A program made the position numbers and the translations under genes. Source: an uncultured Pseudomonadota bacterium (GTDB lineage: Bacteria; Desulfobacterota; Binatia; Binatales; Binataceae). Taken from it: a stretch of DNA of 64,000 bases. The DNA is taken from the NCBI GenBank assembly GCA_963824565.1, contig CAWGQB010000027.1:92548-156547 (forward strand). The letters are read 5' to 3'. This document shows positions 6,360 through 60,100 of the stretch, piece by piece (within the stretch, counting starts at the first letter, position 1; the number at the start of each line of letters is the position of its first letter). The notes under the pieces are model-generated. The model was not told the origin of the DNA. It did no database searches and saw only the letters and a program-made list of their open reading frames with translations.

Positions 6360-9300
6360 TCAGCGGTGGGCGCCGCTGGCTGCAGCCCGGGTTTCATCGC
6401 TTACCACACTGACCGGGCGAGCCGGCCGCTCGGCCGGAACTTCATGGGAGCCGGTAAACCAGCGAATCACGTTGTAGAACACGGGAGTCATGAAGACTCC
6501 GAAGAACGTCACGCCAATCATGCCGAAGAAAACCACGGTGCCCAGTGCCTGACGCATCTCGGCGCCGGCGCCGCCCGCGGTAATTAGCGGAATAACGCCG
6601 AAGATAAAGGCCAGGCTGGTCATGACGATTGGCCGCAAGCGGAGGTTGGCCGCTTCGACCACCGCGTCGACCGGTTTTATCCCGTGGTGCTGCTCCTCCT
6701 GCTGTTTGGCGAATTCGACGATCAGCACCGCGTTCTTGACGCTCATCCCGGCCAGCACGACAAACCCGATCTGCGTGAAGATGTTGTTATCCATTTGGTA
6801 GGCCCAGACCCCGGCGATCCCGCACAGCAGACACATCGGGACGATCAGAATGATTGCGGTGGAGAGCGCGAAGCTTTCGTATTCCGCGGAGTGGGTCAGC
6901 CAGACAAACAGAATACAGAGCGGAAAGACCAGAACCGCCAGGCCGCTGGCAGCCTTTTCCTGGTAGGCCAGATCGGTCCAGTCAAAGCCGAACTGCCGCG
7001 GCAATTGGGTCCGGGCCAGGTCCTCCATCGCCGCCAGGCTCTGGCCGCTGCTGTAGCCGGGCGCGGTGGTGCCATCGAGGTCGGCCGCTGTGTACAGATC
7101 GTAGCGTTGGATGCGGTCGGGACCGACGATATCCTTGATTTCGGATACCGCGCTCAGTGGAATCATCTGGCCGGTGGTGCTGCGGGTCTCCAGTCGGCCA
7201 ATCTGGGCGACGGTCGCGCGGAAGGGGGCGTCGGCCTGGGCGACCACATGCCAGGTGCGGCCGAGATAGTTGAAGTTGTTGATGTAGTAGCTGCCCAGAT
7301 AGACCTGTAGCGCCTGGAAGATATCGGTGACCGGCACGTTCTCGTCCTTGGCCTTGACCCGATCGACGTTGATGTAAAGCTGGGGAACATTGGCGCGGAA
7401 GGTGGTGAACGCCCGGCCAATCTCCGGTCGCTTGCGCGCCGCCGCGATCAGGTGTTCGGTCACCGCCTCCAGCTGCTGCGGGGTGGCGGCGCCGGAGCGA
7501 TCCTCTACCTCCATGGTGAAGCCGCCGGCATTGCCCAGTCCTCTGACCGGCGGGGGCATCAATACCAGCCCGAAGCCGCCCTGGATGCGGGCATACTTGC
7601 GATTGATCTGCGCCACGAGTGCGGCGGCGTCCATCCCGGGCTTGCCGGCGCGTTCGCTGAAGGGCAACAGGCGCAGGAACAGGAACCCTGCGGCGGAGGA
7701 GTTGGAGCGCGACAGAACCGAAAAGCCCGCCACCGCGAAGGTCCCATCGACCCCCTTGGTCTGCAACGCGGCCTGGGCCATTTGCGATACCACCGCGCTG
7801 GTGCGCGAGATCGACGATGCGTCGGGCATCTGCACATTGACCACCAGAAAGCCCTGGTCCTGGGTTGGAATATAACCGGTGGGCACAATCTTGAAGAGGT
7901 GGTAAGCGAGATAACCCAACCCGACGTAAACCAGCAGCACCAGGCCCGTGTAGCGCACGACGCGGCGCAAGGCCCGCAGGTAGCCGCGGTTAGTGGCCTC
8001 GAAACCCCAGTTGAACAGCCGGAAGAACCATCCAAACAAGAGGTCAAGAATGCGGCCCAACCAGTCCTGCTTGGCCCCGGGCGGCTTGAGCAGCAGGGCC
8101 GACAGCGAGGGGCTGAGGGTGAGCGAATTGAACGCCGACAGCAGGGTCGAAAACGCGATGGTCAAGGCGAACTGCTGGTAGAAGCGACCGGTGATGCCGG
8201 GAATGAAGGCGACGGGAATGAATACCGCCGACAGGCCGAAGGCGATGGCAATGACGGCCGGGGTAACCTCATCCATCGCGCGCCGGGCGGCCTCGCGCGG
8301 AGTCAGTCCCTGTTCCAGCCAGCGCTGGACGTTTTCGACCACCACGATCGCGTCATCCACCACGATGCCGATCGCCAGCACCAGGCCGAACAGCGACAGC
8401 ATATTGAGGGAGAAATGCATCAGCCACATCACCGCGAAGGTCCCGATCAGGGACACCGGAATGGCCAGGATCGGCACCAGCGCGGCGCGCCAGTTTTGCA
8501 GGAAGACCAGCACCACCAGCGCCACCAGCCCGACCGCGATCAGCAGGGTGCGGATGAGGTCGCGGATGCTCTCGCGCACGAACGGGGTGGTATCGTGAGC
8601 GATGGCATAGTCCAACCCGGGCGGAAATCGGCGCTTGAGTTCCCGCAACTTGGCGTAGATTGCATTGGCGGTATTGATGGCGTTGGTGCCCGGCAGCTGG
8701 AACACCGCCAGGCCCACCGCCGGATGGCCGTTGTAGCTCAGAGTAGTACTGTAGTCGGCCGCCCCCAGTTCGACCCGGGCGACGTCCTTGAGCCGGGTGA
8801 TGCGCCCACCGCTACCGACCTTGACCACGATATCTTCGAACTGCGCGGGATCGGTAAGCTGGCCCTGGGCATTCAGGGTGTACTGAAAGGCGGAACTTCT
8901 GAGCGGGGAGCGGCGGGCCGCCGACGATCCCGGCGGCAACCTGGACGTTCTGTTCCTGGATCGCGTTGATCACATCGCCCACGGTCATATTGCGGACCGA
9001 CAACTGGTCGGGGTTGAGCCACAACCGCATCGAGTAGTCGCGGACGCCGAAGATGTTGATGTCGCCCACTCCCGGCAGACGCGCGATCTGGTCTTTGATC
9101 TGGAGCGTAACGTAGTTGCTGACGAACAGGGCGTCGTGCGAGCTGTCGGGCGAGTAGAACGCGATCGCCAAGGTTATGTCGGGCGAAGCCTTCTTGACGA
9201 TTACTCCCTGCTGCTGCACCTCGATCGGGGAGCTGCGGAAGGGCAATCGCCACCCGGTTCTGAACCTGTACCTGGGCGACGTCAAGATTGGTGCCGACCT

Positions 9301-12039: not shown

Positions 12040-12700
12040 TTAAAAATTGATTCCTGAAACAGATCTTAAGAAGCAAGGTCTGGAAATAATGGCGGGGCAA
12101 GGCTGTGCGATCCGCAGGACAATCTTGCCGCGAACGTGGCCGGTCTGGCTTAGCTCGTGCGCCCGCCGAGCCTCGGCCAAGGGGACAATCGTATTGACGA
12201 TGCTCCTCAGTTTTCCCGGAATCAACCAGTCGCGCCGTTTCAGATAGCTGTTGCGGGTTTGCCTGGACTCCGACGCGTACCGCGCGCACCCCATGCGCGG
12301 TGGCCTCCTGCGCCGATGGCACATTGACGATCGAGATCAGGATTCCGCCCTTCTTGAGGGTCCGCCACGAGCGCTTCTGAGTATCTTCGCCGATCGCGTC
12401 CAATACGACGTCGGCGTCCCTGATCACATCTTCGAAACGCGTCTTTTCATAGTCGATAGGGTCATCGATGCCCAGTTCGCGCAGAAAGCCTTGGTTACGG
12501 CCCGAGGCCGTGCCGATGATGTGAGCACCCTTCCATTTCGCGAATTGAATCGCGAAAGTTCCGACACCGCCCGCGGCGGCGTGGATCAACACTGTCTGAC
12601 CCGCGCTGAGACCGCCAGCGTCGAAAAGCGCTTGCCAAGCGGTCAAAGCGGCGAGCGGGATGCCGGCGGCATGAAGGTGGTCGATGGACCTGGGCTTGAG
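12040..12700 (-). pseudogene. zinc-type alcohol dehydrogenase / NADPH:quinone oxidoreductase, C-terminal half only, frame break near 12211-12214
   Basis: ...IPLAALTAWQALFDAGGLSAGQTVLIHAAAGGVGTFAIQFAKWKGAHIIGTAS... is a Rossmann AxxGxxG motif. The C-terminus LRSIVNTIVPLAEARRAHELSQTGHVRGKIVLRIA is in another frame (T-run). The N-terminal catalytic domain is replaced by IS sequence. Confidence 0.7.
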
Positions 12701-13150
12701 CTGAGTCTGATCGCCTATAACCTCGGGAACCTGTGGCGGCGGCTGGCGCTGCCCGCGCCGATCGGGAAGTGGTCGCTAACCAGCTTGCAGCAGCGGCTGG
12801 TGAAACCGGCGGGCGCCTTAATAAAGCATGCACGTTACTACTGGCTGTTGCTGGCGGAGAGCCATCTGACGCGGCGGCTTTTCGGGAGCATGCTGCGGAG
12901 AATTGCGATGCTGCCGTCGCCAGCAGGATAGGCGGTTTGCAGAGCACAGCAAAATTTCGGTGACGGATAGGGAGCAAAGGGATAAGTATCTGATAACTCG
13001 GTCGGAAAAACGCCGGTTCAGGTGCTTTAGGCCAATGCGAGGCAGAGCTGCTCCGTTGAGGCGTAATGGAAGGGACCTTCGGGCACAAACTCGGGCTCGA
13101 ACTTCGCGTTTGCAAACCACTGGTGTCGGTGCGATGGTGAATCAGAATCG
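12700..13150 (+). mobile_element. IS1380-family remnant 1 (last ~75 codons of the transposase plus about 200 bp of the 3' end); right boundary approximate
   Basis: LSLIAYNLGNLWRRLALPAPIGKWSLTSLQQRLVKPAGALIKHARYYWLLLAESHLTRRLFGSMLRRIAMLPSPAG* is a paralog of the C-terminus at 25703..25930 (about 80% nt identity by eye). Post-stop DNA is also alignable between the two copies. Confidence 0.6.
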
Positions 13151-20653: not shown

Positions 20654-21596
20654 ATGGATCGCATGGTCACACTCGACGGAGTGCGGAAAGTCTACCACGC
20701 AAAAGCGCGCGTCGTCGCGCTGGATTCGATCAGCCTGGGCGTCAGGCGCGGCGAGTTGTTTGGACTCTTGGGACCCAATGGAGCGGGCAAGAGTACCACC
20801 ATTGGAATTTGCACGACGCGTACTCTACCGACCGCGGGCGAGGTGTTGATCGCCGATATCGACGTCCTCAAAGAGCCCGCCCGGGCGCGGCGTTGCATGG
20901 GCGTGGTTCCGCAGTACCGGACCCTCGATCGCGCCTGTACGGTTTGGGAGAACCTCTATTTTCATTGCCGCTATTACGGCTTCAAACATTCCGCCGCACG
21001 GCAACGCACCCAGGAGCTGTTGGAGCGGTTCCGCCTTGGCCGAAAGAATCAAGGCTTTCCCGGGCGAACTCTCCGGCGGCCTGGCGCAACGGCTGGAAAT
21101 TGCGCGGGCGATCTCACATCGGCCCGAGGTGCTGTTTTTGGACGAGCCGACGGCCAGCCTGGATCCTCAAACCCGGTTGGCAATATGGGACATCATTCGC
21201 GAACTGCGCGCGAGCGGACTTACCGTGGTGCTCACCACCCACAACATGGAAGAAGCCGATGCGCTATGCGAGCGCGTGGCGATCATCGATCACGGCAAAA
21301 TCCTGGTGTGCGACACTCCGGAGAATTTGAAGAACAGACTCGGCGCGCAGACGATTTTTGACCTCGACCTCAACGGCGCGCCGCCCGAAATCGCGCAACT
21401 CCTGCGCGAGTTGCCGGAGGTGAGCGCGGTCGAGCCGACCGCTACTGGATTTCGGGTCAGCGCCGAAGCTCGTGACGGTCTGCTGCCACGAATCGTCCAG
21501 CTCACCAGCGGACACCATTTGCGCGACATCTCGGTGATCGAGCCGAGCCTCGAAACCGTGTTCATCGCGCTCACTGGAAGAGAGTTGCGTGAGTAG
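20654..21596 (+). pseudogene. ABC-2-type exporter ATP-binding protein, frame break near 21035-21040
   Basis: Walker A GPNGAGKST is in frame 1 (ORF 20654..). The signature LSGGLAQRL, Walker B VLFLDEPT and the H-loop are in ORF 21036..21596. The join is ...ELLERFRL / AERIKAFPGELSGG. Confidence 0.8.
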
Positions 21597-22404
21597 CGAT
21601 ACCCCGGCCGCTTCCTTGATTTATTTGCGCTCCTTCACGGGCCTGATGCTGCGCGATTTTCGCGTCCTGCGGCGCGAGTTCATCGCCTTCCTAATCCGAA
21701 CCGTGATGAACCCGCTGTTGTTCGTGTTTGTGTTCACTTATCTGTTTCCGAAAATCGGTCAAGGAGTGAAAGGCGTCCAGGGTGTCAGCTTCGGCACTAT
21801 TCTGCTTCCCGGTTTGATCGCGGTCGGCATCTTCTTCCAGGGCATTATGGCGGTTGCGCTCCCGCTATCGCAGGAACTTGGGGCGACCCGTGAAATCCAT
21901 GACCGCGTGATGGCGCCCTTGCCGGTCGTCCTGGTGGCGGTTGAGAAGATTGTGTTCAGTGCGCTGCAAAGCGTGCTCGCGGCGATTGTCATATTCCCGC
22001 TGGTCGATCTAATCCCGCTTAATCCCGTACAGGTACACATTTATAGCTGGCCGCTGCTGGTAATTATGGTGCTGCTGGCGGGTCTGGTGTCGGGTGCGGT
22101 CGGACTTACCATCGGAACGATCGTAAAGCCGCAACAGATCGGATTGATCTTTGGCGTGGTGGTGGTGCCGGTGACCTTTCTCGGATGCGTCTATTATCCA
22201 TGGGCGGTGCTGTCGCACGTGCCTTGGCTGCAGATCCTGGTTCTGGTCAACCCGATCGTTTATATGAGCGAAGGATTGCGCGCCGCGCTCACCGCTCAGG
22301 TCCAGCACATGCCTGTGGCGGCGATCCTGACCGCCCTGTCGGCCGCGTTGGCGCTGATCGGCTTTATCGGGATCCGCGGCTTCATGCGCCGGGTCGTGGA
22401 TTAG
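21589..22404 (+). CDS. ABC-2 family transporter permease
   Basis: 271 aa with 6 predicted TM segments. The GTG start overlaps the ATPase stop. Sequence is ABC-2 like (..LRDFRVLRREFIAFLIRT..). Confidence 0.8.
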   Translation: MSSDTPAASLIYLRSFTGLMLRDFRVLRREFIAFLIRTVMNPLLFVFVFTYLFPKIGQGVKGVQGVSFGTILLPGLIAVGIFFQGIMAVALPLSQELGATREIHDRVMAPLPVVLVAVEKIVFSALQSVLAAIVIFPLVDLIPLNPVQVHIYSWPLLVIMVLLAGLVSGAVGLTIGTIVKPQQIGLIFGVVVVPVTFLGCVYYPWAVLSHVPWLQILVLVNPIVYMSEGLRAALTAQVQHMPVAAILTALSAALALIGFIGIRGFMRRVVD

Positions 22405-22941: not shown

Positions 22942-23399
22942 TTAATGGACCCAGGTGGCGATCGCTTCGGCTGCCACCAGAAACATGACCGCAGTGGAAA
23001 TCCATCCGACCACCTTTTGCCGCAATGGGAGCCTGAGCACACCCGTCACTTTCGGATTGGCGGTCATCAGCATCATTACGACCATGATCGGACACCGCGG
23101 CGATGCCATTGATCACCGCGCTCCAAAACAGTGCCTTGATCGGATCGATGGAAGTGAAGTTCAATGCCACACCCATACCCAGCAGCGTGGCGACGCCTAA
23201 AGTTCCATGGAAGCCCCTTGCTTTAGCGTGCCTCCGCTCGAGCCCTGTAGGCCACTTGAGGGCCTCGGTGTTGGAGCGCGAAATCGACCAGAACATCGCG
23301 CCGCGGAGGTCGAGCATCTCAATCAGCTCCGCGCCGCTTACCAGCAGGCCATCGATGGCAAGTGGCCGGAAGGCCTGATGTGGGAGCGGTCCATCGCTA
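22942..23399 (-). pseudogene. Nramp-family divalent-metal transporter, C-terminal fragment (frame break near 23090; TAG at 23399..23397 at its upstream limit)
   Basis: ...EALKWPTGLERRHAKARGFHGTLGVATLLGMGVALNFTSIDPIKALFWSAVINGIAAV, then PIMVVMMLMTANPKVTGVLRLPLRQKVVGWISTAVMFLVAAEAIATWVH*. This matches the conserved C-terminus I recall for this Nramp subfamily (..DPIKAL.WSAVINGV.A.P.M..MM.....). Confidence 0.55.
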
Positions 23400-23458
23400 T
23401 CGCGTTGCGATCATCGCCAGCCGTGAGAAGGCTGCCCGGCTGCGGTAATCCCTCTCTG

Positions 23459-25396
23459 TCAGGGAAGTGGCTTGCGAGCGTTCAAATGGCACTCCTCTTC
23501 CGCCGCCGTCCCCCACGAGCCGTACTCGGCAACGTATCCGGATCGGCGGTCGAGGACCCACGTCTCGTTCATGATGTGCATGTTGCTGTCGACGGTGCCG
23601 AACGCGAACTGGAGCTTCGCCCCGTCCGGGATCGCGTCCGCAGGCATGATGTCGTACAAGTTCCCCCTGAACATGTTCCGAGCCTTGGGCTCCACCAACT
23701 TACCCTCGTACAGGATGCATGCGATGGCGCTGAACGCCCCCTCCTGATTCAGCCTGAAATAGGCGATCGTGTTGTCTTCTGCCATGTAACTCGGATTGCG
23801 CGGATCGTCTGCGAACCAAAACCGCTTGAATGTCCCGGCCGGGAAGTACGTGTCGCTCGTATCATTGCGCGCCTTGAGGTTTCGCCCTATCCAGTCAACG
23901 ACGAGTTCGGTTCCGGTGAATTGGTCGTAGTTTCGTGTGGGTACTTTGAAATTGTCGTACGAGGACGCCCAGTCCGTCACCCCGGTCACGCCGGGCGAGA
24001 TCCAAGCGTCCGTCAAATCTCTCACGATCGCCAGGGACTTCCCGGATTTGTACATCTTGCGCATCCCGTTCATGCGACGCAGAATGCACCAGTTTGTCTG
24101 CCCACCGACGTAGATTATGTTCGGTCTGTTGCTAGTGAGGGCAAGCACTTCCTCGTAAGAGTTACCATTGTTGTCGCCTGCAACACCATCAGCGGAAACT
24201 GCATCAGTTGAATAGATTATGATTTGTGCGTTCTGTCGGGAAGGAGTGCCTCCGCTGACAATCCCACGCATTCGTCCAGCGGGTGAATCGATGCCGTTAT
24301 TGGGGTCAATGTTATTGACAATAAAATCGAAATCCTCTTCGATTAATCTACCGACTGGGTCTGAGCGGTCGCCAATGAGCCCAATGTAGTAATACCCGTT
24401 GCGGACCCAAATCTCTACCGGTGCACCCGAAGGAAATCGCGCGTTGATCGCATTTTGTCGCGCTTGCCGCTCCTCGGGGGTCGATCCGTTCGTGGTTGTG
24501 GTGGGATCATATCGGCCCTTGATTGTCCCCCGCATGTCAGAGGGTGAGCCCGTACTTGGCGAATGTATGATGAGTGCACCCGCATTGCGTGCGGCTGTTA
24601 CGAACTTGTTGATTTGCGGTGCCACTTCGCCGACGCGCGAGGCTGTACCTTGGCTCGGGTGGGTATTCCACATATCCATGATCAGCACCGCAGTCTCCGC
24701 CCAATCCTTCGGGGTCAAGACACCATTTGGAAACGGACGATTGACAAGTTTGCAAACATGGCGGAACGGGTCGCCTTCATCGTGGTAATTGTTGATGGAT
24801 TTTCCAGGCTGGAATTCAATCGTCTGAGTCTTCTCTTTGACAAATACATTGACGCCGTCGATCCGCCCATCTACATGCGTGTTATTGTCGAGGCGGCCTG
24901 AAAACGGCGGCTTGGAATTCCATGCGACCACCTCTTCGGTGCTTTTGACCCAAACACAATTCGTGCCGTCGGCATGGCATGAGTCACCAACGGGGCTTGC
25001 AGCCCAGTTGTGCCAGCACACTCTGGTCATGTCGCCAAAAATAATTGGCGCGCCTGTGGGGACGGCGGTAGCGGGCCGGGGTACTGCAGTTCCTGCTTTT
25101 GGGACTATCTTGACGTTGGAGCCGTCGACCGAAGTACAGTTGCAATTCGGATTGCTGGGGCGACCAAAATCGGTGAAATTCTGGTGATGACACACGACCC
25201 TCTCAGAGTTATTCAGTATTATGCAATGTGACCCGTCGATTCGACATTTGTTCGGCTGGTCGCATGGCTGTCGGAAGCCCGTATGCCAGCACACGACACT
25301 CTGGAAGTCTTCGACCATCGCGCAATTGCTGCCATCCGGACTACAGGTGTCGCCTGCCGGGCTAGCTGCCCAATTGTGCCAACATACTTTTCTCAT
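23459..25396 (-). CDS. orphan 645-aa protein: N-terminal Cys/Trp/His-rich repeats + isochorismatase-like (cysteine-hydrolase-fold) core with a large insert + beta-rich C-terminal domain
   Basis: Intact ORF with ATG 25396 (SD AAGGA) and no signal peptide. There are four or five ~30-aa repeats (RKVCWHNWAASPAGDTCSPDGSNC, VVCWHTGFRQPCDQPNKCRIDGSHC, VVCHHQNFTDFGRPSNPNCNCTSVDGSN, TRVCWHNWAASPVGDSCHADGTNC). The blocks AVLIMDMWNTHPSQGTASRVGEVAPQINKFVTAARNAGALIIHSPS and IIYVGGQTNWCILRRMNGMRKMYKSGKSLAIVRDLTDAW resemble an isochorismatase-like family. G+C is visibly low. Confidence 0.7.
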   Translation of the reverse strand: MRKVCWHNWAASPAGDTCSPDGSNCAMVEDFQSVVCWHTGFRQPCDQPNKCRIDGSHCIILNNSERVVCHHQNFTDFGRPSNPNCNCTSVDGSNVKIVPKAGTAVPRPATAVPTGAPIIFGDMTRVCWHNWAASPVGDSCHADGTNCVWVKSTEEVVAWNSKPPFSGRLDNNTHVDGRIDGVNVFVKEKTQTIEFQPGKSINNYHDEGDPFRHVCKLVNRPFPNGVLTPKDWAETAVLIMDMWNTHPSQGTASRVGEVAPQINKFVTAARNAGALIIHSPSTGSPSDMRGTIKGRYDPTTTTNGSTPEERQARQNAINARFPSGAPVEIWVRNGYYYIGLIGDRSDPVGRLIEEDFDFIVNNIDPNNGIDSPAGRMRGIVSGGTPSRQNAQIIIYSTDAVSADGVAGDNNGNSYEEVLALTSNRPNIIYVGGQTNWCILRRMNGMRKMYKSGKSLAIVRDLTDAWISPGVTGVTDWASSYDNFKVPTRNYDQFTGTELVVDWIGRNLKARNDTSDTYFPAGTFKRFWFADDPRNPSYMAEDNTIAYFRLNQEGAFSAIACILYEGKLVEPKARNMFRGNLYDIMPADAIPDGAKLQFAFGTVDSNMHIMNETWVLDRRSGYVAEYGSWGTAAEEECHLNARKPLP

Positions 25397-25479
25397 GAAA
25401 TGTTTCCTTCAATTCGGAGAGAATAGTCTGGAAGAAACGTCTGCGGTACGAACTTAAACCGGAATTTCCGTTTTGCCTC

Positions 25480-26425
25480 TCCGATTTCAACTCCGCATAT
25501 AGACCAACCGGCTTCCCTCGGCAAGGTTTTGGCCCATTTGGCCCAGTTTTGGTCCACGGTGCCGCCAGCCGCGCCCGGATGGGTCGGTTTAGCGTCTCGC
25601 GGCCACGCAACCCCCAGAAATGCCGTTCGTCCAATCGATTCCGGCAACCACTTCTCCCTCCCCCCATCTCGTCATCAAAATCTGCTGCGCTCCGCGGGCC
25701 GCCTATCCGGCTGGCACCGGCAGCGTCACAATACTCTGCAGCATGCCGCCAAACAGCCGCCGCGTCAGGTGGCTCTCCGCCAGCAGCAACCAGTAGTAGC
25801 GGGCGTGTTTAATCAGACGGCCCCCGGTTTTCACCAGCCGCTGCTGCAAGCTGGTGAGCGACCAGTTGGCGACCGCTGCCCGCAGCGCCAGCCGCCGCCA
25901 CAGATTGCCCAGATTGTAGGCAATAACACTGAGCCACAGCCGCACTTCATTGGCCCGAAAGCGGTGGCCGCTAAGCCGCGTCATCGCGACCGCCTGCTTG
26001 CCTTCCTTTATCCATTGTTCCGCCGTGCCGCGCTTGTTGTAGAACGTCACCACCGCTCGGCTTGAAACGGTAAGGTTGGTCACGATGAACCCGACCCGCG
26101 GGAACAACTCCCCGAAGTGGAACTCCACCTTCGCCACCACCCGCCGCGCCCTGGTCCAGCTCGCTGCCTGATAGTGAAAGCTCTTGTAGCGCACCACCGG
26201 CTTGTAGCTGGGCCTTCCCACCGGGCGGGTCAACAATTGAGCAACCTTGCGCTCCAGGTTGTCGTTGGCCGGAAGGCGGATCGCGTACTTTGCCTCCCGC
26301 TCCTCGACCGCTCGCAGACCTCCGGCTTGGCGAAGGCGGCGTCACCGCGGAAGGCCACCTCCTAGCCCTGCGCCTGCTGCCGGTCGATCTCGGGCAACAG
26401 CAGTTCCTCCCAGCCCTCACTCGGC
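25480..26425 (-). mobile_element. IS1380-family remnant 2 (C-terminal ~2/3 of the transposase with one frame break and one in-frame TAG, plus the 3' end); boundaries approximate
   Basis: ...GWEELLLPEIDRQQAQG*EVAFRGDAAFAKPE, then LRAVEEREAKYAIRLPANDNLERKVAQLLTRPVGRPSYKPVVRYKSFHYQAASW...YNKRGTAEQWIKEGK...WSLTSLQQRLVKTGGRLIKHARYYWLLLAE...PVPAG*. The TAG is at 26364..26362 and the frame break is near 26330. The N-terminal third is absent. Confidence 0.7.
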
Positions 26426-26611
26426 GATCCACGCGCCGATCTCCTGAATTCCCGCCATGAGCGGATAGGAAAAAAGCATCGTCCAGAGCATCGCAAAGCC
26501 GAATTGAGCACCGACTTGGGAGTATGTCGCGATACCACTCGGGTCGTCGTCGGCGGCCCCGGTGACAATGCCGGGACCCAGCTTTCCCATGCCGCGCAAG
26601 GCCTTCGACAC
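26426..26611 (-). pseudogene. Nramp-family transporter, N-terminal ~60 codons (interrupted by IS remnant 2)
   Basis: (V)SKALRGMGKLGPGIVTGAADDDPSGIATYSQVGAQFGFAMLWTMLFSYPLMAGIQEIGA contains the hallmark GPG..TGA.DDDPSGIATYSQ.GAQFG motif. Homology stops abruptly where transposase-like sequence begins. Confidence 0.65.
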
Positions 26612-53407: not shown

Positions 53408-56400
53408 ATGGCACAATCAGGGACTGTAACACTGCTATTTACCGACCTGGTCAATTCGACCGATCAGTTGCAACAGGCGGGCGACGAAGCCGAGCGGTGG
53501 TTTCGAGTTCATCACAAGCTGATGACCGATGCGGTCACGGCCGGCGGCGGAGAGGAGCTGCAATGGCTGGGCGACGGGATGCTGGCGGCGTTCTCGTCGA
53601 TCGCCGACGCGGTGCGTTGCGCCATCAATGTGCAGCAGACCGCGCGCCGCCCGATGGCCGGCGCGCGTTTCGAGATTCGCATCGGCATTCATTTGGGCGA
53701 GGTCCTGCGCCGCGACGGCGGCTACTTCGGTATGCCGGTGGTCACCGCGCGCCGGCTGTGCGACCGTGCCGAGGCCGGGCAAATCCTGTGCAGCAAACTG
53801 ATCGCGGAGTTGCTGGCGGCGCGCCAGACTTTCAGCTTCCGCGATCTGGGCGAATTTAGCTTGAAAGGCCTCGCGGCGCCGGTGGGGATTTGCGAGGTAG
53901 TTTATCCGGCTAACGACCCCGCCGCGATGCTTAACCGGACCCCGTTCGTGGGCCGTGGCGGGCAACTGCAGCGGCTGTCAGCCAAGCTCGAAGAGGCCTG
54001 CAACGGCCGCGGCTCGATTGCGATGGTGCGCGGTGAACCGGGGATCGGCAAGACCCGGACGCTCGAAGAGTTCGCCGACCAGACCCGCCAACGCGGCGCG
54101 GTGGCGATTCGCGGCGCTTGTTACGACGGCGAATGGCAGGCGCCCTACGGCCCGTTCGCGGAAGCAATCATGGAGTATGCTCGCGATGCCAACCGCGCCG
54201 AGCTTGGCACCCTGCTGGGCAAGCGGGCGCCGATTCTCGCGCGCATCGCGCCGGCGCTGCACGAGTTGCTCGGCGACATCCCCGAACCGGTGCCGCTGGA
54301 CAAGGAAGAAGAACGCTTCCGCCTGTTCGACGCGGTCGCGCAGTTTTTGATCAGCGCCGCGCAGTATGCGCCGCTAGTGCTGATCCTCGACGACCTGCAC
54401 TGGGCGGACCGCGGCACGGTAGCGATGTTAAGCCATGTGGCGCATTTCGTTTCCGCCAATCCGATCGTGCTCATTGGCGCCTATCGCGACGCTGAAGTCG
54501 ACCGCAAGCATCATCTGGCGGGGGCTCTGGCCGGCATCAGCCGGCTGCACAATTTCGACAGCCTGGCGCTCAAAGGGCTCGAAGGTGAGGAGGTCGCGGA
54601 CTTGCTCGGGTTAATCGGCGACGGGCAGCCACCTGACGCCCTGGTCAAGGCGCTGGGGGGCGCCACCGAAGGCAACCCGCTGTTTCTGCGCGAGGTGTTG
54701 CTGCACTTGGTAGAAGAGGGAAAAATCCTGCGCGAAGGCCACGGCTGGATTTCCAAGTTCAGCGTCGACGAACTCGGTATCCCCGAAGGCGTGCGCCAGG
54801 TAGTCAGCCGGCGACTGCTGAGGCTGTCCGATGACGCCAACCGTCTGCTCGGGGTCGCTTCGGCGTTCAACGGCGCATTCTCGTTTGAGGTGGCAGCCTC
54901 GGCGGCGGGACTCCACGAGAACACCGCGCTCAGCGCGATTGACGAAGCCCTGGAGGCTCAGCTTTTACAGCCGGGGCCAAGCCCGGAGAGTTTCGACTTC
55001 ACCCACGCGATGATCCGGCACACACTCTATAATGATCTCCATCCGGCCCGCCGGGTGCGGCTGCATCGCAAGATCGCCGAAGAAATGGAGCGCGCCTGGG
55101 GCGAGCGCGCGGCGCATCACGCCGCGGAAGTGGCGTTTCAGTTCTGGCGCGGCGCCGCGGCGTCCTCGGGCACCGAGCGCGGCGTCGATTACGCACTGGC
55201 CGCGGCCGATAATTCCGAAGCCGCCTACGCGCATGACGAAGTGGCGGCGTTCCTGCGCATCGCCTTGGAGTTGCTCCCGGCCAACGACTCCAGACGCCCG
55301 CGTCTGCTCGCGCGTTTGGGCACCGCACTGATCTGGACGCTTGATGCCGACGACGGGGTCAAGGTCGCGCTCGAAGCGGGATCCATGATTGCCGCCACCG
55401 AGGGAGCCGATCCTGCGGCCGACTTCTTTGAAGCCACCGCGCGCGGAATGCTGCGCGCTGGCCTGATGCGTCACGCATGGGATTTGGCCCGGGAAGGCCT
55501 GCGCAACATCGGCAAGCGCCGTGACATTGTGTGGGCGAGCCTCGACGAGATCGATACGTATCGCGCTGATGCTGAAGATCCCGACAGCCCGGCCATAACT
55601 GTCGATTCCCAACGACTGCGCCAACGGCGCGCGGTACTCAAGCAAATGTCATCCGAGCGGGCCAAAGCCCGGAGAATTGACGAATATCCCTACGACTCAA
55701 GAGAGGAAATCATTCGCGACCCCAACTGCGACAATCTGGCGATGGTTTTTCTCGCCGGCGATTGCCGGCGCAGTCTGCCGTTGTGGCAGCAGCGCTCCGC
55801 CGACGCTGAGCGCTGCGGCCGGATTGCGTTGGCGATGGAGTCCTGGGCATACGTCGCCCGATGTCACAATGCGCTCGGCGATTTCATTGCCGCGCGGGCC
55901 GCGTATGATCGGTCGATCGCATTTGCCGCGCGCTTCAATCGCCCTTCGTTTCAACTCCTTAATCTCATGTCCGTTAGATATGATTTCCTCATAGCCCTTG
56001 ACCACGGCTGGGATGAAACCATCAGCGTTCCCGGAGCAGCGGAGCTGTTCAAAAATCCGCTCCCGGAATTGAAATGGGCCTATGCCGCCGCTTGCGCGAC
56101 CACGGCTCACACTCTGGCGTTACAGAACCGCGCCGATCAGGCGTTACAGGTGCTTAGCATCGTACCCGATGCGCTGCGTCGTGGAGCGCCCTTTGGACTG
56201 GTGTACAGCTTGACCGCCTGTGATGCCGCGTCGGTGCTGTGGCTACTCAATCGCACTGATCATATGGAGGTTATCGAGAGTAGCATCCGGGAGAAGGTTC
56301 TGGCCCCCGATTTCCGTTTTCCGATGCGCGACGGCCGGTTATCGATGGCGCGTCTGTCCGCGCTTGCGGGCCGCTACGATGAGGCGGCGGACTGGTTCGC

Positions 56401-56614
56401 CAAGGCGCGCGAGATCCTCGATGAGCAGGGTTGGCGGCCGCTGCGTGCAATCTGTGACTACGATGAAGCGGTAATGTATATACGGTGCGGCGCGGCAACG
56501 GGCATCTCAAACGCGCAGCCTCTGCTCGACGCGGCTGCGCGCCAATTCCAGTCCCTCGGCATGCCCGGCTGGATCAAGCGCGCCGAGCAAACCTCTGCCG
56601 CCATCCGCAATTAG
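53408..56614 (+). CDS. class III cyclase domain + AAA/STAND P-loop ATPase + TPR-like C-terminal region (1068 aa), paralog 1
   Basis: Cyclase blocks are VTLLFTDLVNST, ELQWLGDGMLAAF, FEIRIGIHLGEV and GGYFGMPVVTARRL. Walker A is GEPGIGKTR and Walker B is LVLILDDLHWAD. The long helical-repeat C-terminus has no LuxR-type HTH recognisable. Confidence 0.9.
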   Translation: MAQSGTVTLLFTDLVNSTDQLQQAGDEAERWFRVHHKLMTDAVTAGGGEELQWLGDGMLAAFSSIADAVRCAINVQQTARRPMAGARFEIRIGIHLGEVLRRDGGYFGMPVVTARRLCDRAEAGQILCSKLIAELLAARQTFSFRDLGEFSLKGLAAPVGICEVVYPANDPAAMLNRTPFVGRGGQLQRLSAKLEEACNGRGSIAMVRGEPGIGKTRTLEEFADQTRQRGAVAIRGACYDGEWQAPYGPFAEAIMEYARDANRAELGTLLGKRAPILARIAPALHELLGDIPEPVPLDKEEERFRLFDAVAQFLISAAQYAPLVLILDDLHWADRGTVAMLSHVAHFVSANPIVLIGAYRDAEVDRKHHLAGALAGISRLHNFDSLALKGLEGEEVADLLGLIGDGQPPDALVKALGGATEGNPLFLREVLLHLVEEGKILREGHGWISKFSVDELGIPEGVRQVVSRRLLRLSDDANRLLGVASAFNGAFSFEVAASAAGLHENTALSAIDEALEAQLLQPGPSPESFDFTHAMIRHTLYNDLHPARRVRLHRKIAEEMERAWGERAAHHAAEVAFQFWRGAAASSGTERGVDYALAAADNSEAAYAHDEVAAFLRIALELLPANDSRRPRLLARLGTALIWTLDADDGVKVALEAGSMIAATEGADPAADFFEATARGMLRAGLMRHAWDLAREGLRNIGKRRDIVWASLDEIDTYRADAEDPDSPAITVDSQRLRQRRAVLKQMSSERAKARRIDEYPYDSREEIIRDPNCDNLAMVFLAGDCRRSLPLWQQRSADAERCGRIALAMESWAYVARCHNALGDFIAARAAYDRSIAFAARFNRPSFQLLNLMSVRYDFLIALDHGWDETISVPGAAELFKNPLPELKWAYAAACATTAHTLALQNRADQALQVLSIVPDALRRGAPFGLVYSLTACDAASVLWLLNRTDHMEVIESSIREKVLAPDFRFPMRDGRLSMARLSALAGRYDEAADWFAKAREILDEQGWRPLRAICDYDEAVMYIRCGAATGISNAQPLLDAAARQFQSLGMPGWIKRAEQTSAAIRN

Positions 56615-57137: not shown

Positions 57138-60100
57138 ATGGCGGAATCCGGAACCGTTACGCTGCTGCTCACCGATCTGGTCAATTCGAGCCTACTGTTG
57201 GAGCGCGCCGGCGACGAAGCCGGCCAGCGGTTGTTCCGTGCCCACCACAAGCTGATGACCGATGCGATCACCAGCAACGGCGGAGAGGAATTGCAATGGC
57301 TGGGAGACGGCGTGCTGGCGGCGTTTTCATCAACCGCCGACGCGGTGCGTTGCGCGATCATTATCCAGCAAACCGCACGGCGGCCCGTGGAGGGAGCGCG
57401 GTTCGAGATCCGCATCGGGGTCCATATCGGCGAGGCGTTGCGGCGCGAGGACGGCTACTTCGGCACACCTTTGGTGATGGTGCGCCGGCTGTGCGAGCGC
57501 GCCGCGGCCGGACAGATCCTTTGCAGCAGGCTGATCGCGCAGATATTGGCCTCGCGCCAGTCGTTCACGTTCCGCGCGCTTGATAACGTCGAACTCAAAG
57601 GTTTCGCGGCGCCAATCGCCATCAGCGAAGTCGTCTACCAGCGCAACGATCCGGCAGCACTGCTCAATCGCACTCCGTTCGTGGGCCGCTCAGAGCAACT
57701 CAAACGTCTGTCGGTTAAGCTTGAAGAGGCCTGCAACGGCCACGGGGCGGTTGCGATGCTTCAGGGCGAGCCCGGCATCGGCAAGACCCGCACCCTGGCC
57801 GAGTTTGCCGACATGGCCCGCCAACGCGGAGCGCTGGTGCTGCGCGGCGCTTGCTACGACGGTGAATGGCAACGGCCCTATGGTCCGTTCGCGGAAGCGA
57901 TCGTCGAATACACGCGGCATGCCCAACCCGCGCAACTCGCCGCTGCATTGGGCAAGAGCGCGTCAATTATCGCACGCATCGCGCCGGCGCTCCGCGAACG
58001 GCTGGGCGACATTCCGGAACCCACAGCGTTGGACAAGGACGAGGAGCGCTTCCGGCTGTTGGACGCGGTTTCACAGTTTCTCATCGCCATCGCCCAGCAC
58101 ACGCCCCTGGTATTGGTGCTCGACGATCTGCATTGGGCGGACCGCGGGACGACGGGACTGCTCGGCCACGTGGCGCATAGTGTTCCCGCGAATCCGATGC
58201 TGTTAATCGGCGCCTACCGCGACGCCGAGGTTGACCGGATGCACCCGCTCTCCAGAGCCGTCGTCACGATTCGAAGGCTGCCGAACTTTGAAATCATTTC
58301 GTTGAAGGGTCTCGGAGGCGAAGAGGTAGCTGAGTTGCTCGAGATCGTCGCCGACCACGACGCGCCCCAGGCTCTGGTCCAGACGCTCAGCGCGGAGACC
58401 GAAGGCAACCCGCTATTTATCCGCGAGGTGCTCTTGCACCTGCTGGAAGAGGGAAAGATTCTGCGTGACGGCCAGGGCTGGATATCGAAATTCGACGTAT
58501 CGGAGCTCGGTATCCCAGAGGGAGTACGCAGTGTAATCGGCAGGCGCCTGGAGAAGCTGTCCGCTGAAGCCAATCGCCTGTTGACGGTCGGGGCGTGCTT
58601 TAAAGGTTCGTTCTCTTTCGAAGTGGCTGCCGCTGTTGCCGAACTGGACGAAGACGTTGCACTCAACGCGGTCGACGAGGCACTCGATGTGCAACTGCTG
58701 CGTCCTGGCGCCAATGCTGAGAGCTTCGATTTCAACCATGCGCTCATCCGCCACACGCTTTACTCAGAGCTCAACCCCGCTCGCCGGGTACGGCTGCATC
58801 GCCGCATCGCGGAAGCGATGGAACGTACGTGGGGCGAGAAGGCGTCGGAACACGCTGCCGAAGTGGCCTACCAGTTCTGGCGCGGCGCCACCGCTTCCGG
58901 CACCGAACGCGGTGCGGACTACGCGATCGCGGCCGCGGACTATGCCGAAGCTGCCTATGCGCACGACGAGGTAGTCGCCTTTTTACGCATCGCCTTGGAA
59001 CTCCTGGCGCGAAACGACTCGCGCCGAACCCGGCTGCTCGCCCGCCTGGGGCTGGCCCTCACGTGGACACTTAACGAGGAAGAGGCGGTAAGGGTCGCCC
59101 ACGAAGCGGGTGACTTGATCGCACCTGCCGAGAGCCCTGCCGCAGCGGCAGACTACCTCAGGATCGCGGCGCGCGCGATGTATTCCGCGGGACTGTTGCG
59201 TGGCGCCTGGGAACTGGCCAAGGATGGGCTCCGTCATGCGGGTGACCGCCACGACGTCACCTGGGCCAGCCTTAACGAGATTGATTTGATGCGCCAGGGC
59301 GCCGAGGATCCCGCAAATCCGGGTATCCGTTCCGACACCCCGAACGAACGCGAACATCGTGCCATATTGAGGCAGCTGCCGCCCGAACAATTGCGCGCCG
59401 CCGGTCTGGATCGGCCATTTGATTCCAGGAATGAGATCCTGCAATCCAATGACCCCTCGCCAATTGCATTGTTGTTCCTTGCGGGCGAATACCGGCGCAG
59501 TCTGCCCATTTGGCAACGAGAGGCGGCCGAAGCAGAGCGCGCAGGCCGAATCATGTGGGCGATGCACGCGTGGGCCAGCGTGGCACGCTGCCATATCGCG
59601 CTTGGTGACCTGACTGTCGCGCAGGCAGCATGCGACCGTGCCGCGGTGTTGTCCGGACGTTCGGTCGGGTCATCGCCCTGGCTGCTGAACCTGCTCTCGG
59701 CGAGACACGACCGGCGCGTCATGCTCGATGAGGGATGGGAAGAAGTATTCAGCGATCCCTTAGTCCAAACCCTGATGCAGGAGCAGCGCGCGGAGAACAA
59801 ATGGGCAGCGGCGCCAGTCCATGCTGCATCGGCTTACCTGTTTAGCCGAATCAACCAGCCGGAGATGGCTGTGCAGCGGCTCGAATCGCTGACCGCCGCG
59901 CTCGAATACGGAGCCGGATGGGCCAATGTTTACAGCGGCATGGCCTGTGACGCAGCTGCGACGCTATGGTTTCTCAATCGTACGGACTCGATCGGCGTCA
60001 TTGAACGAAACCTCCGTGAAAAAGTCATTGCTCCCGACTTCCGCTATCCGATGCGCGACGGACGTCTCTCTCTCGCGCGTCTGTGCGCTCTCCAGGGGCG

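What the first reader, a model, noticed from the sequence alone, without database searches (positions are those of the whole stretch)
23459..25396. Low-G+C orphan 645-aa protein with CWH-type Cys-rich repeats fused to an isochorismatase-like core
SEEN:
- The ORF is intact in a sea of broken genes.
- Hand counts give 27/60 G+C for 24181-24240 and 23/60 for 24301-24360, versus 40/60 for 7501-7560 in the RND gene.
- The N-terminal 150 aa contain 13 Cys in four or five ~30-aa repeats, with a near-identical pair (VCWHNWAASP(A/V)GD(T/S)C..DG(S/T)NC at aa 4 and 126).
- There is no signal peptide.
- Central blocks resemble isochorismatase-like hydrolases, but the usual HWC motif reads HPS, and about 170 aa are inserted between the two conserved halves.
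- The C-terminal ~170 aa are beta-rich and of unknown type.

INFERENCE: this is a horizontally acquired gene of novel domain composition. The repeats could be a metal- or glycan-binding module.
Basis: partly seen in the sequence, partly recalled or inferred. Interest (0 to 1): 0.65.

Follow-up and report, generated by a model that had tools for sequence, protein, structure and literature searches.

The report
Modular hydrolase with Cys-His repeat module
This intact gene encodes an uncharacterised three-part protein: new cysteine/histidine-rich repeats, a divergent isochorismatase-like hydrolase core that lacks the usual catalytic lysine, and a small add-on domain; it is not an orphan, and it has recently moved between soil bacteria.

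Summary
Three of its conclusions need correcting.

- **Not an orphan.** A 90%-identity cluster holds 32 proteins. There are 20 representative clusters at E<1e-30, mostly in peat and bog Alphaproteobacteria. None has a known function.
- **Low G+C is weak evidence.** G+C is 55.2% against 58.9% for the window. The deficit lies in codon position 1, so it reflects amino-acid composition. GC3 and codon usage are ordinary.
- **Transfer is supported by other evidence.** Copies 91-98% identical sit in unrelated contexts. In this window the gene and a truncated IS1380-like transposase replace the middle of an Nramp gene.

Anatomy:
- Five ~30-aa repeats. Four carry a C-x-H plus at least two further Cys. 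They have no Pfam, PDB or Foldseek relative, and I infer they bind zinc.
- An isochorismatase-like fold that keeps Asp241 and Cys437 but has no conserved Lys.
- A separable ~105-aa C-terminal domain.

Relatives fuse these modules to lectins, a phospholipase-C-like phosphoesterase, an aerolysin-type toxin, fucosidase and sulfatase. This points to a glycan- or surface-targeted hydrolase. It is a new variant of a known kind, of moderate interest.

The parts
23459..25396 (-). Intact 645-aa ORF (stop codon 23459-23461).
   Evidence: dN/dS against the 93%-identical L001 copy is 0.27 overall. The exact protein is on record on a 232,146-bp NCBI/ENA contig.
25403..25411 (-). Upstream signals. In-frame TGA at 25409-25411 excludes any N-terminal extension. 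GAAGGAAA (25403-25410) is a plausible ribosome-binding site, with AGGA ending 8 nt before the ATG.
   Evidence: Read from the sequence and from the frame translation '...N*RKHF|M'. The ribosome-binding role is inferred.
25301..25390 (-). Repeat R1 (aa 3-32), type A: KVC-W-H...GDTC..DGSNC. Putative ligands C5, H7, C18, C25.
   Evidence: Repeat HMM E 5.5e-14. Ligand table.
25202..25297 (-). Repeat R2 (aa 34-65), type B: VVC-W-H...C45...C51..DGSHC58.
   Evidence: Repeat HMM E 2.3e-16. It also matches an HMM built only from the P0044 phosphoesterase repeats, E 1.1e-6.
25094..25198 (-). Repeat R3 (aa 67-101), type C: VVC-H-H...C85-N-C87..DGSNV. The post-DG Cys is absent and a second mid Cys is present.
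   Evidence: Repeat HMM E 5.3e-10. Compensation pattern.
25025..25093 (-). Pro/Ala-rich linker (aa 102-124).
   Evidence: pLDDT below 50 in both models. Most divergent segment against L001.
24935..25024 (-). Repeat R4 (aa 125-154), type A, paralogue of R1. This is the first unit found in every family member.
   Evidence: Repeat HMM E 1e-12. 17/22 aa identical to R1 but 70% in DNA. Aligned across the family.
24824..24934 (-). Repeat R5 (aa 155-191), degenerate type B with no Cys: VVAWNS...IDGVNVFVKE.
   Evidence: Weak HMM match, E 0.007. The equivalent unit keeps C-x-H and Cys in P0011-P0015.
23789..24754 (-). Divergent isochorismatase-like hydrolase core (aa ~215-536). Codons of conserved residues: D241 24674-24676, H246 24659-24661, H278 24563-24565, D398 24203-24205, C437 24086-24088.
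   Evidence: Pfam PF00857 23.3 bits at aa 235-289. AF2 pLDDT is mostly 80-97. Foldseek to TrtA, RutB and BiuH. Residues conserved across 60 sequences.
23462..23779 (-). Separable C-terminal domain (aa 540-645) of unknown fold.
   Evidence: Stand-alone 100-118-aa homologues P0035, P0062 and P0112. dN/dS 0.18. Absent or split off in 536/541-aa variants. The AF2 model is unreliable here.
23267..25601 (-). Segment shared at 96.4% DNA identity with metagenome contig L003. The shorter stretch 23437-25456 is shared at 93% with L001.
25703..26236 (-). Truncated IS1380-like transposase: only the C-terminal part of DDE_Tnp_1_4 (profile 273-433 of 435).
   Evidence: A second partial copy lies at 12695-12928.
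26432..26590 (-). Nramp transporter remnant, N-terminal (aa 24-76 of a 432-aa homologue).
   Evidence: Pfam Nramp hit. tblastn at 70% identity.
22972..23263 (-). Nramp transporter remnant, C-terminal (aa 331-425), with an internal frameshift near 23092. It starts about 4 bp from the end of the L003-homologous segment.

Best explanation
The ORF is a functional gene for a modular enzyme of an uncharacterised family. All three parts are under purifying selection.

**Shown**
- The core (aa ~215-536) has the isochorismatase-like hydrolase fold. It keeps the catalytic Asp (D241) and the nucleophile Cys (C437, in G-x-x-T-N-x-C).
- It belongs to a distinct clade with no conserved catalytic Lys. That clade has its own conserved set instead: D241, W243, H246, R254, R270, H278, P280, S281, R313, D398, N435, C437, R441, R446, R459, D460, T462, D463.
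- The N-terminus is five ~30-aa beta-hairpin repeats. The C-terminus is a separable ~105-aa domain.
- The gene lies in an IS-scrambled patch, and near-identical copies occur in unrelated contexts.

**Inferred**
- The core is a thiol-dependent amidase or esterase. C437 attacks a carbonyl, D241 acts as base and substrate anchor, and an Arg/His, or a metal held by H246/H278/D398, supplies the charge normally given by Lys.
- Each C-x-H repeat folds around one Zn(Cys3His) site. C and H sit two residues apart on one strand and so face the same side.
- The repeat array and the C-terminal domain are swappable targeting modules. They hold the enzyme on a glycan or glycoconjugate substrate, probably at a cell surface.
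- The gene travels as a small cargo unit, ancestrally paired with a phospholipase-C-like phosphoesterase, among acid peat and soil bacteria.
For: **A real, constrained gene**
- dN/dS against L001 is 0.27 overall, 0.38 for R1-R3, 0.25 for the core and 0.18 for the C-terminal domain. No Cys or His ligand differs in the 91%-identical homologue.
- The 90% cluster has 32 members.

**Fold and active site**
- Pfam and Foldseek place the core in the isochorismatase-like fold.
- Conservation was measured over 18 family and 42 Planctomycetota/Verrucomicrobiota-type sequences. No Lys is conserved between D241 and C437.
- The canonical triad is D24/K129/C162, with Lys 33 residues before Cys (PMC7948467).

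**Repeats**
- The HMM finds 108 units in 36 proteins.
- C3 and H5 co-occur: 58 units have both and 15 have neither, against 4 mixed. All 58 C-x-H units have at least 4 potential ligands.
- Units with one mid Cys always keep the post-DG Cys (16/16). Units without the post-DG Cys always have at least two mid Cys (17/17).
- 'VCWH' is predicted as a beta-strand in every unit.
- The query has no signal peptide.

**Targeting role, from domain neighbours**
- The repeats are fused to a PF04185 phosphoesterase (P0044, 12 units) and to an ETX/MTX2 aerolysin-type toxin (P0166).
- Aerolysin modules usually carry N-terminal lectins (PMC9468336 and PMC3110756, from the titles and abstracts listed).
- Family members carry an H-type lectin (P0024) or a ricin-like trefoil (L009/L010, 25.0 bits against a cut-off of 25.6).
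- The wider clade is fused to fucosidase+CBM35, sulfatase, GDSL esterase, ThuA and NPCBM_assoc.
- Several family members have Tat-like signal peptides.

**Mobility**.
Against: - There is no biochemical evidence for any member, and no conserved operon to hint at a substrate.
- The Pfam score is below its threshold.
- Loss of the catalytic Lys could mean a different chemistry or none. One homologue (P0014) has Ser at the Cys position.
- P0044-type repeats have only 2 Cys and no His. Zinc therefore cannot be universal to the repeat family, and disulfides remain possible.
- The repeat units counted are phylogenetically related, so the contingency statistics overstate independence.
- The query lacks a signal peptide, which fits poorly with a surface-glycan role unless export is unconventional.
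- The phosphoesterase partner is missing from this window.
Confidence: 0.5

Rival explanations
1. The repeats are disulfide-knotted extracellular lectin-like units, not zinc sites. The protein is exported by a non-classical route and acts outside the cell.
For: - P0044-type units keep only the two Cys that could form one disulfide, and have no His.
- R1+R2+R3 hold 10 Cys, an even number.
- Close family members carry Tat-like signals, and Planctomycetota/Verrucomicrobiota-type relatives carry N-terminal hydrophobic leaders that look like Sec signals by eye.
- The fusion partners (toxin, phosphoesterase, lectins) are typically extracellular.
Against: - The query and most C-x-H-bearing members have no signal peptide.
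- R4 has 3 Cys.
- The tight C3/H5 co-occurrence and the constant count of at least 4 ligands are hard to explain by disulfides alone.
- The Tat-exported members are the ones that have lost most repeat Cys.
Confidence: 0.22
2. The core is a pseudoenzyme or a pure binding scaffold. Without the catalytic Lys it no longer hydrolyses anything, and the protein works as an adhesin or lectin.
For: - No conserved Lys lies between D241 and C437.
- P0014 has Ser in place of Cys.
- The Pfam score is sub-threshold.
- The protein has many binding-type modules.
Against: - D241 and C437 are conserved in 59 of 60 sequences across two deeply diverged groups. About 18 other polar residues cluster in the motifs that line the active site in this fold.
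- That pattern, together with fusion to other hydrolases, is typical of an active enzyme.
Confidence: 0.13
3. It is a toxin or effector aimed at other cells (bacteria, fungi or protists). It is carried on mobile DNA, with the repeats acting as the receptor-binding part.
For: - The repeats are shared with an ETX/MTX2 pore-forming toxin and a phospholipase-C-like enzyme.
- The closest copies are adjacent to a phospholipase-C-like gene.
- The gene is mobile, lies next to IS remnants and has a patchy distribution.
- Unconventionally secreted isochorismatase effectors exist in filamentous plant pathogens (PMC4348438, from the abstract listed).
Against: - No immunity gene, secretion-system gene or conserved partner lies nearby.
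- No PADLOC or PHROG hit.
- Tat-signal family members look like ordinary periplasmic or secreted enzymes.
Confidence: 0.15

Closest known systems
Isochorismatase-like (cysteine) hydrolases with solved structures: triuret hydrolase TrtA (6XJ4/6XIX), RutB (8BLL), biuret hydrolase BiuH (6AZS)
   Same: - Same alpha/beta fold by Foldseek: E 6e-5 to 1e-3, probability 1.0, target TM 0.45-0.65.
- An Asp at the end of the first strand.
- A Cys in the G-x-x-T-x-x-C turn.
   Different: - Only 10-15% identity, and Pfam PF00857 is below its threshold.
- The Lys of the Asp-Lys-Cys triad (K129 in TrtA, 33 residues before Cys; PMC7948467) has no counterpart. An invariant Asp (D398) lies next to that position.
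- About 58 extra residues lie between Asp and Cys.
- The core is embedded between repeat and accessory domains, whereas these enzymes are single-domain proteins of about 220 aa.
Unnamed 'DMW..HWC / IH(A/S)PS' isochorismatase-domain clade of Planctomycetota and Verrucomicrobiota, often fused to ThuA (PF06283)
   Same: Twenty conserved positions are shared, including D241, H246, H278, D398, C437 and RD-x-TD. The canonical Lys is likewise absent. E-values to the query are 1e-23 to 1e-9.
   Different: - These proteins have N-terminal hydrophobic leaders that look like signal peptides by eye, and H-W-C where the query has H-P-S.
- Their Asp-to-Cys spacing is shorter, 149 against 196 aa.
- Their partners are ThuA, fucosidase, sulfatase or GDSL domains, not Cys-His repeats.
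- They too are uncharacterised; no paper was found.
Lectin-plus-effector modular proteins, such as beta-trefoil, jacalin or amaranthin lectins fused to aerolysin-like pore formers (SaroL-1, natterins, LSL)
   Same: The architecture logic is the same: a repeated N-terminal module precedes a catalytic or toxic domain. The same repeat family sits in front of an ETX/MTX2 domain in P0166.
   Different: - The repeat is not a known lectin fold. Nothing was found in Pfam, PDB sequences or Foldseek.
- No binding has been shown.
- It is rich in Cys and His, unlike trefoil or jacalin lectins.
Small zinc-knuckle or zinc-ribbon modules (general class)
   Same: Short units of about 30 aa with four conserved Cys/His ligands on beta-hairpins, with compensating ligand positions.
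   Different: - The first ligand pair is C-x-H on a strand, not the usual C-x-x-C/H knuckle.
- There is no detectable similarity to any solved zinc fold.
- Metal binding is untested.

Membership tests
Isochorismatase-like hydrolase superfamily (Pfam PF00857) | Matches the Pfam model above its gathering score. | tested here: not met
   23.3 bits against a cut-off of 27, covering only aa 235-289 and profile positions 1-57. Homologues hit the Cys-bearing half separately, also below the cut-off.
Isochorismatase-like hydrolase superfamily (Pfam PF00857) | Three-layer alpha/beta fold superposable on solved members. | tested here: met
   The AF2 core has pLDDT of 80-97. The top 50 Foldseek PDB hits are all isochorismatase-family proteins, with E down to 5.9e-5.
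Isochorismatase-like hydrolase superfamily (Pfam PF00857) | Catalytic Asp after strand 1 and nucleophilic Cys in the G-x-x-T-x-x-C turn. | tested here: met
   D241 is conserved in 60/60 sequences and C437 in 59/60.
Isochorismatase-like hydrolase superfamily (Pfam PF00857) | Catalytic Lys about 33 residues before the Cys (K129 in TrtA). | tested here: not met
   No Lys column is conserved between D241 and C437 in either group. The equivalent stretch reads S-T-D398-A-V-S-A. Triad reference: PMC7948467.
Isochorismatase-like hydrolase superfamily (Pfam PF00857) | Cis-peptide bond just before the Cys, and hydrolase activity. | not testable with these tools
   Model coordinates are not exposed, and no biochemistry is available.
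Planctomycetota/Verrucomicrobiota-type 'DMW..HWC' isochorismatase-domain clade (unnamed) | Shared motif set: DMW..H, IH(S/A)PS, D(A/G)(I/V), TN.C, RD.TD. | tested here: met
   Twenty shared positions at 85% conservation or more in both groups.
Planctomycetota/Verrucomicrobiota-type 'DMW..HWC' isochorismatase-domain clade (unnamed) | H-(W/H)-C motif and an N-terminal signal peptide. | tested here: not met
   The query has H-P-S, and the family has P in 15/18 sequences with no Cys there. There is no hydrophobic N-terminus.
Zinc-binding Cys/His mini-domains | Four conserved Cys/His ligands per unit. | tested here: met
   58/58 C-x-H units have at least 4 candidate ligands, with compensation between the mid and post-DG Cys.
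Zinc-binding Cys/His mini-domains | Tetrahedral ligand geometry and bound metal. | not testable with these tools
   No coordinates are exposed, and no metal analysis is possible.
Known lectin or carbohydrate-binding families | Sequence or fold similarity of the repeats or the C-terminal domain to a known lectin or CBM. | tested here: not met
   Pfam, NCBIfam and PDB profile searches found nothing. Foldseek gave E above 3. Only paralogous family members carry recognisable lectin domains.
Recently transferred or mobile gene | Composition or codon usage deviates from the host. | tested here: inconclusive
   G+C has z -1.8, GC3 z -0.7 and codon score z -1.3 against 22 long ORFs of the window. Family genes are 54-57% G+C in every host, whatever the flanks. 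Only 64 kb of host sequence was available.
Recently transferred or mobile gene | Near-identical copies in unrelated contexts, next to mobile-element remnants, disrupting a host gene. | tested here: met
   - DNA identity of 93-98% is confined to the gene plus at most 200 bp.
- The flanks point to different taxa.
- A truncated IS1380-like transposase lies upstream.
- Nramp residues 77-330 are replaced.

The most novel reading that the evidence does not exclude
Two linked novelties remain open.

1. The ~30-aa 'V-C-(W/H)-H ... C ... DG-x-N-C' unit may be a new family of tandem Zn(Cys3His) beta-hairpin repeats. It would serve as a portable ligand-binding (lectin-like) module for enzymes and pore-forming toxins.
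2. The core may represent a lysine-less branch of the isochorismatase-like hydrolases. It would use an Asp/His/His/Asp/Cys constellation, possibly metal-assisted, on glycan substrates. That would make it a new carbohydrate-active deacylase or amidase family, shared with the fucosidase- and sulfatase-fused proteins of Planctomycetota and Verrucomicrobiota.
Probability: 0.3. Interest if true: 0.65.

Novelty: new variant of a known kind. Interest (0 to 1): 0.45.

Why it matters
- It would define a previously undescribed Cys/His repeat module that recurs in hydrolases, a phospholipase-C-like enzyme and aerolysin-type toxins.
- It would flag a sizeable, uncharacterised, lysine-less branch of the isochorismatase-like hydrolases: 671 representative clusters at E<1e-3 for the full-length query. 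Its fusion partners point to polysaccharide breakdown in soil and aquatic bacteria.
- It gives a clear example of recent gene sharing between unrelated peat and soil lineages.
- None of this answers a long-standing question, and function remains inferred. The value lies in a well-delimited target for structural and enzymological follow-up.

Tried and rejected
**Searches that found nothing**
- NCBIfam, PADLOC and PHROGs for the whole protein.
- PDB sequence or profile searches for the whole protein, core, repeats and C-terminal domain: no significant hit. The best were chance-level, with SET-domain ASH1L at E 0.33 and oligogalacturonate lyase at E 0.017.
- Foldseek of the N-terminal model against PDB and BFVD: E above 3.
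- Literature searches for isochorismatase with ThuA, H-type lectin or fucosidase: no papers.

**Analyses that were uninformative**
- Conserved gene neighbourhood across 10 loci: none beyond the phosphoesterase in the three closest copies.
- Terminal inverted or direct repeats around the gene that would define a transposon: none convincing.
- Sigma-70 promoter and intrinsic terminator scan: none, uninformative for this taxon.

- The search for related loci could not use the repeat alignment.
- The second homologue search with the N-terminal 195 aa returned only 2 hits, because of the word index.

**Ideas rejected**
- 'Low G+C proves transfer'.
- 'The repeat region is untranslated': rejected on dN/dS, conserved ligands and the upstream stop.
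- 'R1/R4 is a recent DNA duplication': the pair is only 70% identical in DNA.
Full report
**Observation**

The ORF 23459-25396 on the minus strand is present and encodes 645 aa.

The start is well defined. An in-frame TGA lies four codons upstream of the ATG at 25396, and GAAGGAAA precedes it. No signal peptide can therefore be hidden upstream. The protein has no hydrophobic segment, with a maximum 19-residue hydropathy of 0.99.

**Composition**

The 'low G+C' label is only modestly true.
- The ORF is 55.2% G+C against 58.9% for the window, the 3rd percentile of equal-sized windows. It is the lowest of 23 long ORFs (z -1.8).
- GC3 is 0.652 (z -0.7), and a leave-one-out codon-usage score is within range (z -1.3).
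- The deficit is in first codon positions (z -2.8). This reflects an Asn-rich (7.9%) and Leu-poor (3.6%) protein.
- Family members are 54-57% G+C in every host, whatever the flanks.

Composition is therefore a family trait. It is not evidence of recent arrival.

**Not an orphan**

- A 645-aa protein 91% identical exists in soil metagenomes (P0001). About 15 further proteins share 37-65% identity over the core.
- An exhaustive search of 1.84 billion representatives gives 671 hits at E<1e-3 and 20 at E<1e-30.
- The 90% cluster has 32 members. The exact window protein is on record on a 232-kb NCBI/ENA contig.
- In reference genomes the family sits mainly in Methylocystaceae, Methylocella, Methylocapsa and other alphaproteobacterial MAGs from bogs. 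More distant relatives (25-31%) are in Verrucomicrobiota and Planctomycetota.
- All are annotated as hypothetical.

**Anatomy: the repeats**

A repeat HMM finds five units in the query: aa 3-32, 34-65, 67-101, 125-154 and a degenerate 170-191. It finds 108 units in 36 proteins.

It is only 70% identical in DNA, with 7 of 17 third positions conserved. This is an old duplication held by selection.

The units fall into three types:
- Type A: VC(W/H)HNW..(D)xC..DGxNC.
- Type B: two mid Cys plus the post-DG Cys.
- Type C: C-x-C, with no post-DG Cys.

The last A-B pair (R4-R5) is part of every family member. The extra A-B-C triplet (R1-R3) is an N-terminal extension found in the query subgroup, and it is duplicated in P0009.

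Across 77 distinct units, Cys at position 3 and His at position 5 occur together (58 units) or are both absent (15 units), with only 4 mixed cases.
- Every C-x-H unit has at least four candidate ligands.
- Units with one mid Cys always keep the post-DG Cys (16/16).
- Units lacking the post-DG Cys always have at least two mid Cys (17/17).

The units are related, so these are not independent counts. Even so, the compensation is what a Zn(Cys3His) site would require.

'VCWH' is predicted as a beta-strand in each unit, which puts C and H on the same face. The R1-R3 model is fairly confident, with pLDDT of 80-90. It matches nothing in the PDB or BFVD, and no Pfam, NCBIfam or PDB sequence profile matches.

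**Anatomy: the core**

- Pfam gives a sub-threshold isochorismatase hit at aa 235-289. Homologues hit the Cys-bearing half of the model.
- The AF2 model of the core is good. Its 50 best Foldseek hits are all isochorismatase-family structures: TrtA, RutB, BiuH, YecD and EntB.
- D241 and C437 align with the catalytic Asp and Cys.
- The canonical triad is Asp-Lys-Cys, with Lys 33 residues before Cys (D24/K129/C162 in TrtA; PMC7948467). In an alignment of 18 family and 42 Planctomycetota/Verrucomicrobiota-type sequences, no Lys is conserved anywhere between D241 and C437.
- Both groups instead share D241, W243, H246, R254, R270, H278, P280, S281, R313, Q388, D398, G431, N435, C437, R441, R446, R459, D460, T462 and D463.
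- The 'insertion' is about 47 aa relative to that clade and about 58 aa relative to TrtA, not 170.

**Anatomy: the C-terminal domain**

The family core ends near aa 536. Residues 540-645 form a separate module.
- Stand-alone proteins of 100-118 aa match it at 43-68% identity. They lie in unrelated, often mobile, contexts.
- It is under the strongest constraint of the three parts, with dN/dS of 0.18.
- Several members of the 90% cluster end at ...DDPRNPS. In L031 a 7-bp deletion at the junction separates the domain into another frame.
- Its fold is unknown, because the model is unreliable there.

**Clues to function from domain partners**

- The repeats occur after a PF04185 phosphoesterase (phospholipase C/acid phosphatase family) in P0044, as twelve 30-aa units. 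They occur before an ETX/MTX2 aerolysin-type module in P0166.
- In the three closest genomic copies, a 557-aa PF04185 gene follows the query's homologue on the same strand. Metagenome annotators call it phospholipase C.
- Other family members end in an H-type lectin (P0024) or a ricin-like trefoil. The trefoil members also have a stand-alone copy of that domain just upstream (L009/L010).
- The wider lysine-less clade is fused to alpha-L-fucosidase+CBM35, sulfatase, GDSL esterase, ThuA, NPCBM_assoc and FGE-sulfatase domains.
- Several family members have Tat-like leaders.

Together these partners point to an enzyme that works on glycans or glycoconjugates, with interchangeable targeting modules. 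This is inference from association. No substrate is known, and there is no conserved operon.

**Context and mobility**

Upstream of the gene lies the C-terminal half of an IS1380-like transposase. Beyond it is the N-terminus of an Nramp transporter, residues 24-76. Downstream lie Nramp residues 331-425. About 3.2 kb, made up of the IS remnant and this gene, has therefore replaced the middle of the Nramp gene.

- DNA identity to contig L003 (96.4%) runs from 25601 to 23267 and stops within 4 bp of the Nramp junction.
- Identity to L001 and L002 (93%) covers only the gene plus about 60 bp upstream and 22 bp downstream.
- L001 carries a protein identical to one from a Xanthobacteraceae MAG. The window's ABC-2 permease clusters at 90% or more with Binataceae MAG proteins.

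These points support recent transfer or transposition, with loss of the phosphoesterase partner here.

The 'sea of broken genes' is local: a frameshifted ABC ATPase, the Nramp remnants and the IS remnants. Single-base frameshifts in short homopolymers are seen here and in L003. They could be assembly errors.

**Verdict**

'Orphan' is refuted, and 'low G+C, therefore transfer' is not supported. 'Novel domain composition' and 'metal- or glycan-binding repeats' survive and are sharpened.

The best reading, at about 0.5 confidence, is a modular, surface- or glycan-targeted thiol hydrolase. It belongs to a lysine-less branch of the isochorismatase-like superfamily, carries a new and probably zinc-stabilised repeat module, and is mobile among peat and soil bacteria. 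The rivals are disulfide-bonded lectin repeats, a pseudoenzyme and a toxin or effector.

It is a new variant of a known kind, of moderate interest.

Noticed in passing
window 22972-23263 and 26432-26590 (- strand): An Nramp-family metal transporter gene is split. Residues 24-76 and 331-425 remain, the latter with a frameshift near 23092. The middle ~255 residues are replaced by about 3.2 kb carrying an IS remnant and the studied gene.
   Followed up: yes
window 25703-26236 (-) and 12695-12928 (+): Two partial copies of an IS1380-like (DDE_Tnp_1_4) transposase. Only C-terminal portions remain, and they are 79% identical in protein over 78 aa. This suggests repeated IS activity and decay in this genome.
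   Followed up: partly
window 20654-21596 (+): An ABC transporter ATPase is split into two overlapping ORFs by what looks like one extra G near 21036. This is either a pseudogene or an assembly error. The ABC-2 permease that follows it (21589-22404) is intact.
   Followed up: partly
L031 2236-2243 (equivalent to window ~23786-23792): A 97.7%-identical copy has a 7-bp deletion (CATGGCA) exactly at the core/C-terminal-domain junction. This gives a 536-aa protein and strands the C-terminal domain in another frame. Several cluster members share the 536-aa form.
   Followed up: yes
L001 11039-12712; L002 2228-3901; L003 12195-13868: A 557-aa PF04185 phosphoesterase ('phospholipase C') gene lies directly downstream of the closest homologues. 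It is missing from the window. The same enzyme family is fused to 12 copies of the repeat in P0044.
   Followed up: partly
L003 14154-14205: A 53-bp fragment 96% identical to an internal part of the studied gene (window 24667-24719) lies about 2 kb downstream of the gene in L003. It looks like a stray remnant of another copy.
   Followed up: no
L009 7317-7976 and L010 443-1120: A stand-alone gene for a ricin-like trefoil domain sits immediately upstream of family members that carry the same domain at their C-terminus. This may be a duplication or a domain-shuffling intermediate.
   Followed up: partly
window 53408-56614 and 57138-60338 (+): Two adjacent ORFs of about 1,067 aa. Their 90% clusters carry the names 'class 3 adenylate cyclase' and 'TPR repeat protein' respectively. 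They may be large signalling proteins, and I did not test whether they are paralogues.
   Followed up: no
window 23207-24211 (+): A 334-aa ORF lies antisense to the studied gene. It is probably a by-product of G+C-rich sequence rather than a gene. The selection signal follows the minus-strand frame.
   Followed up: partly
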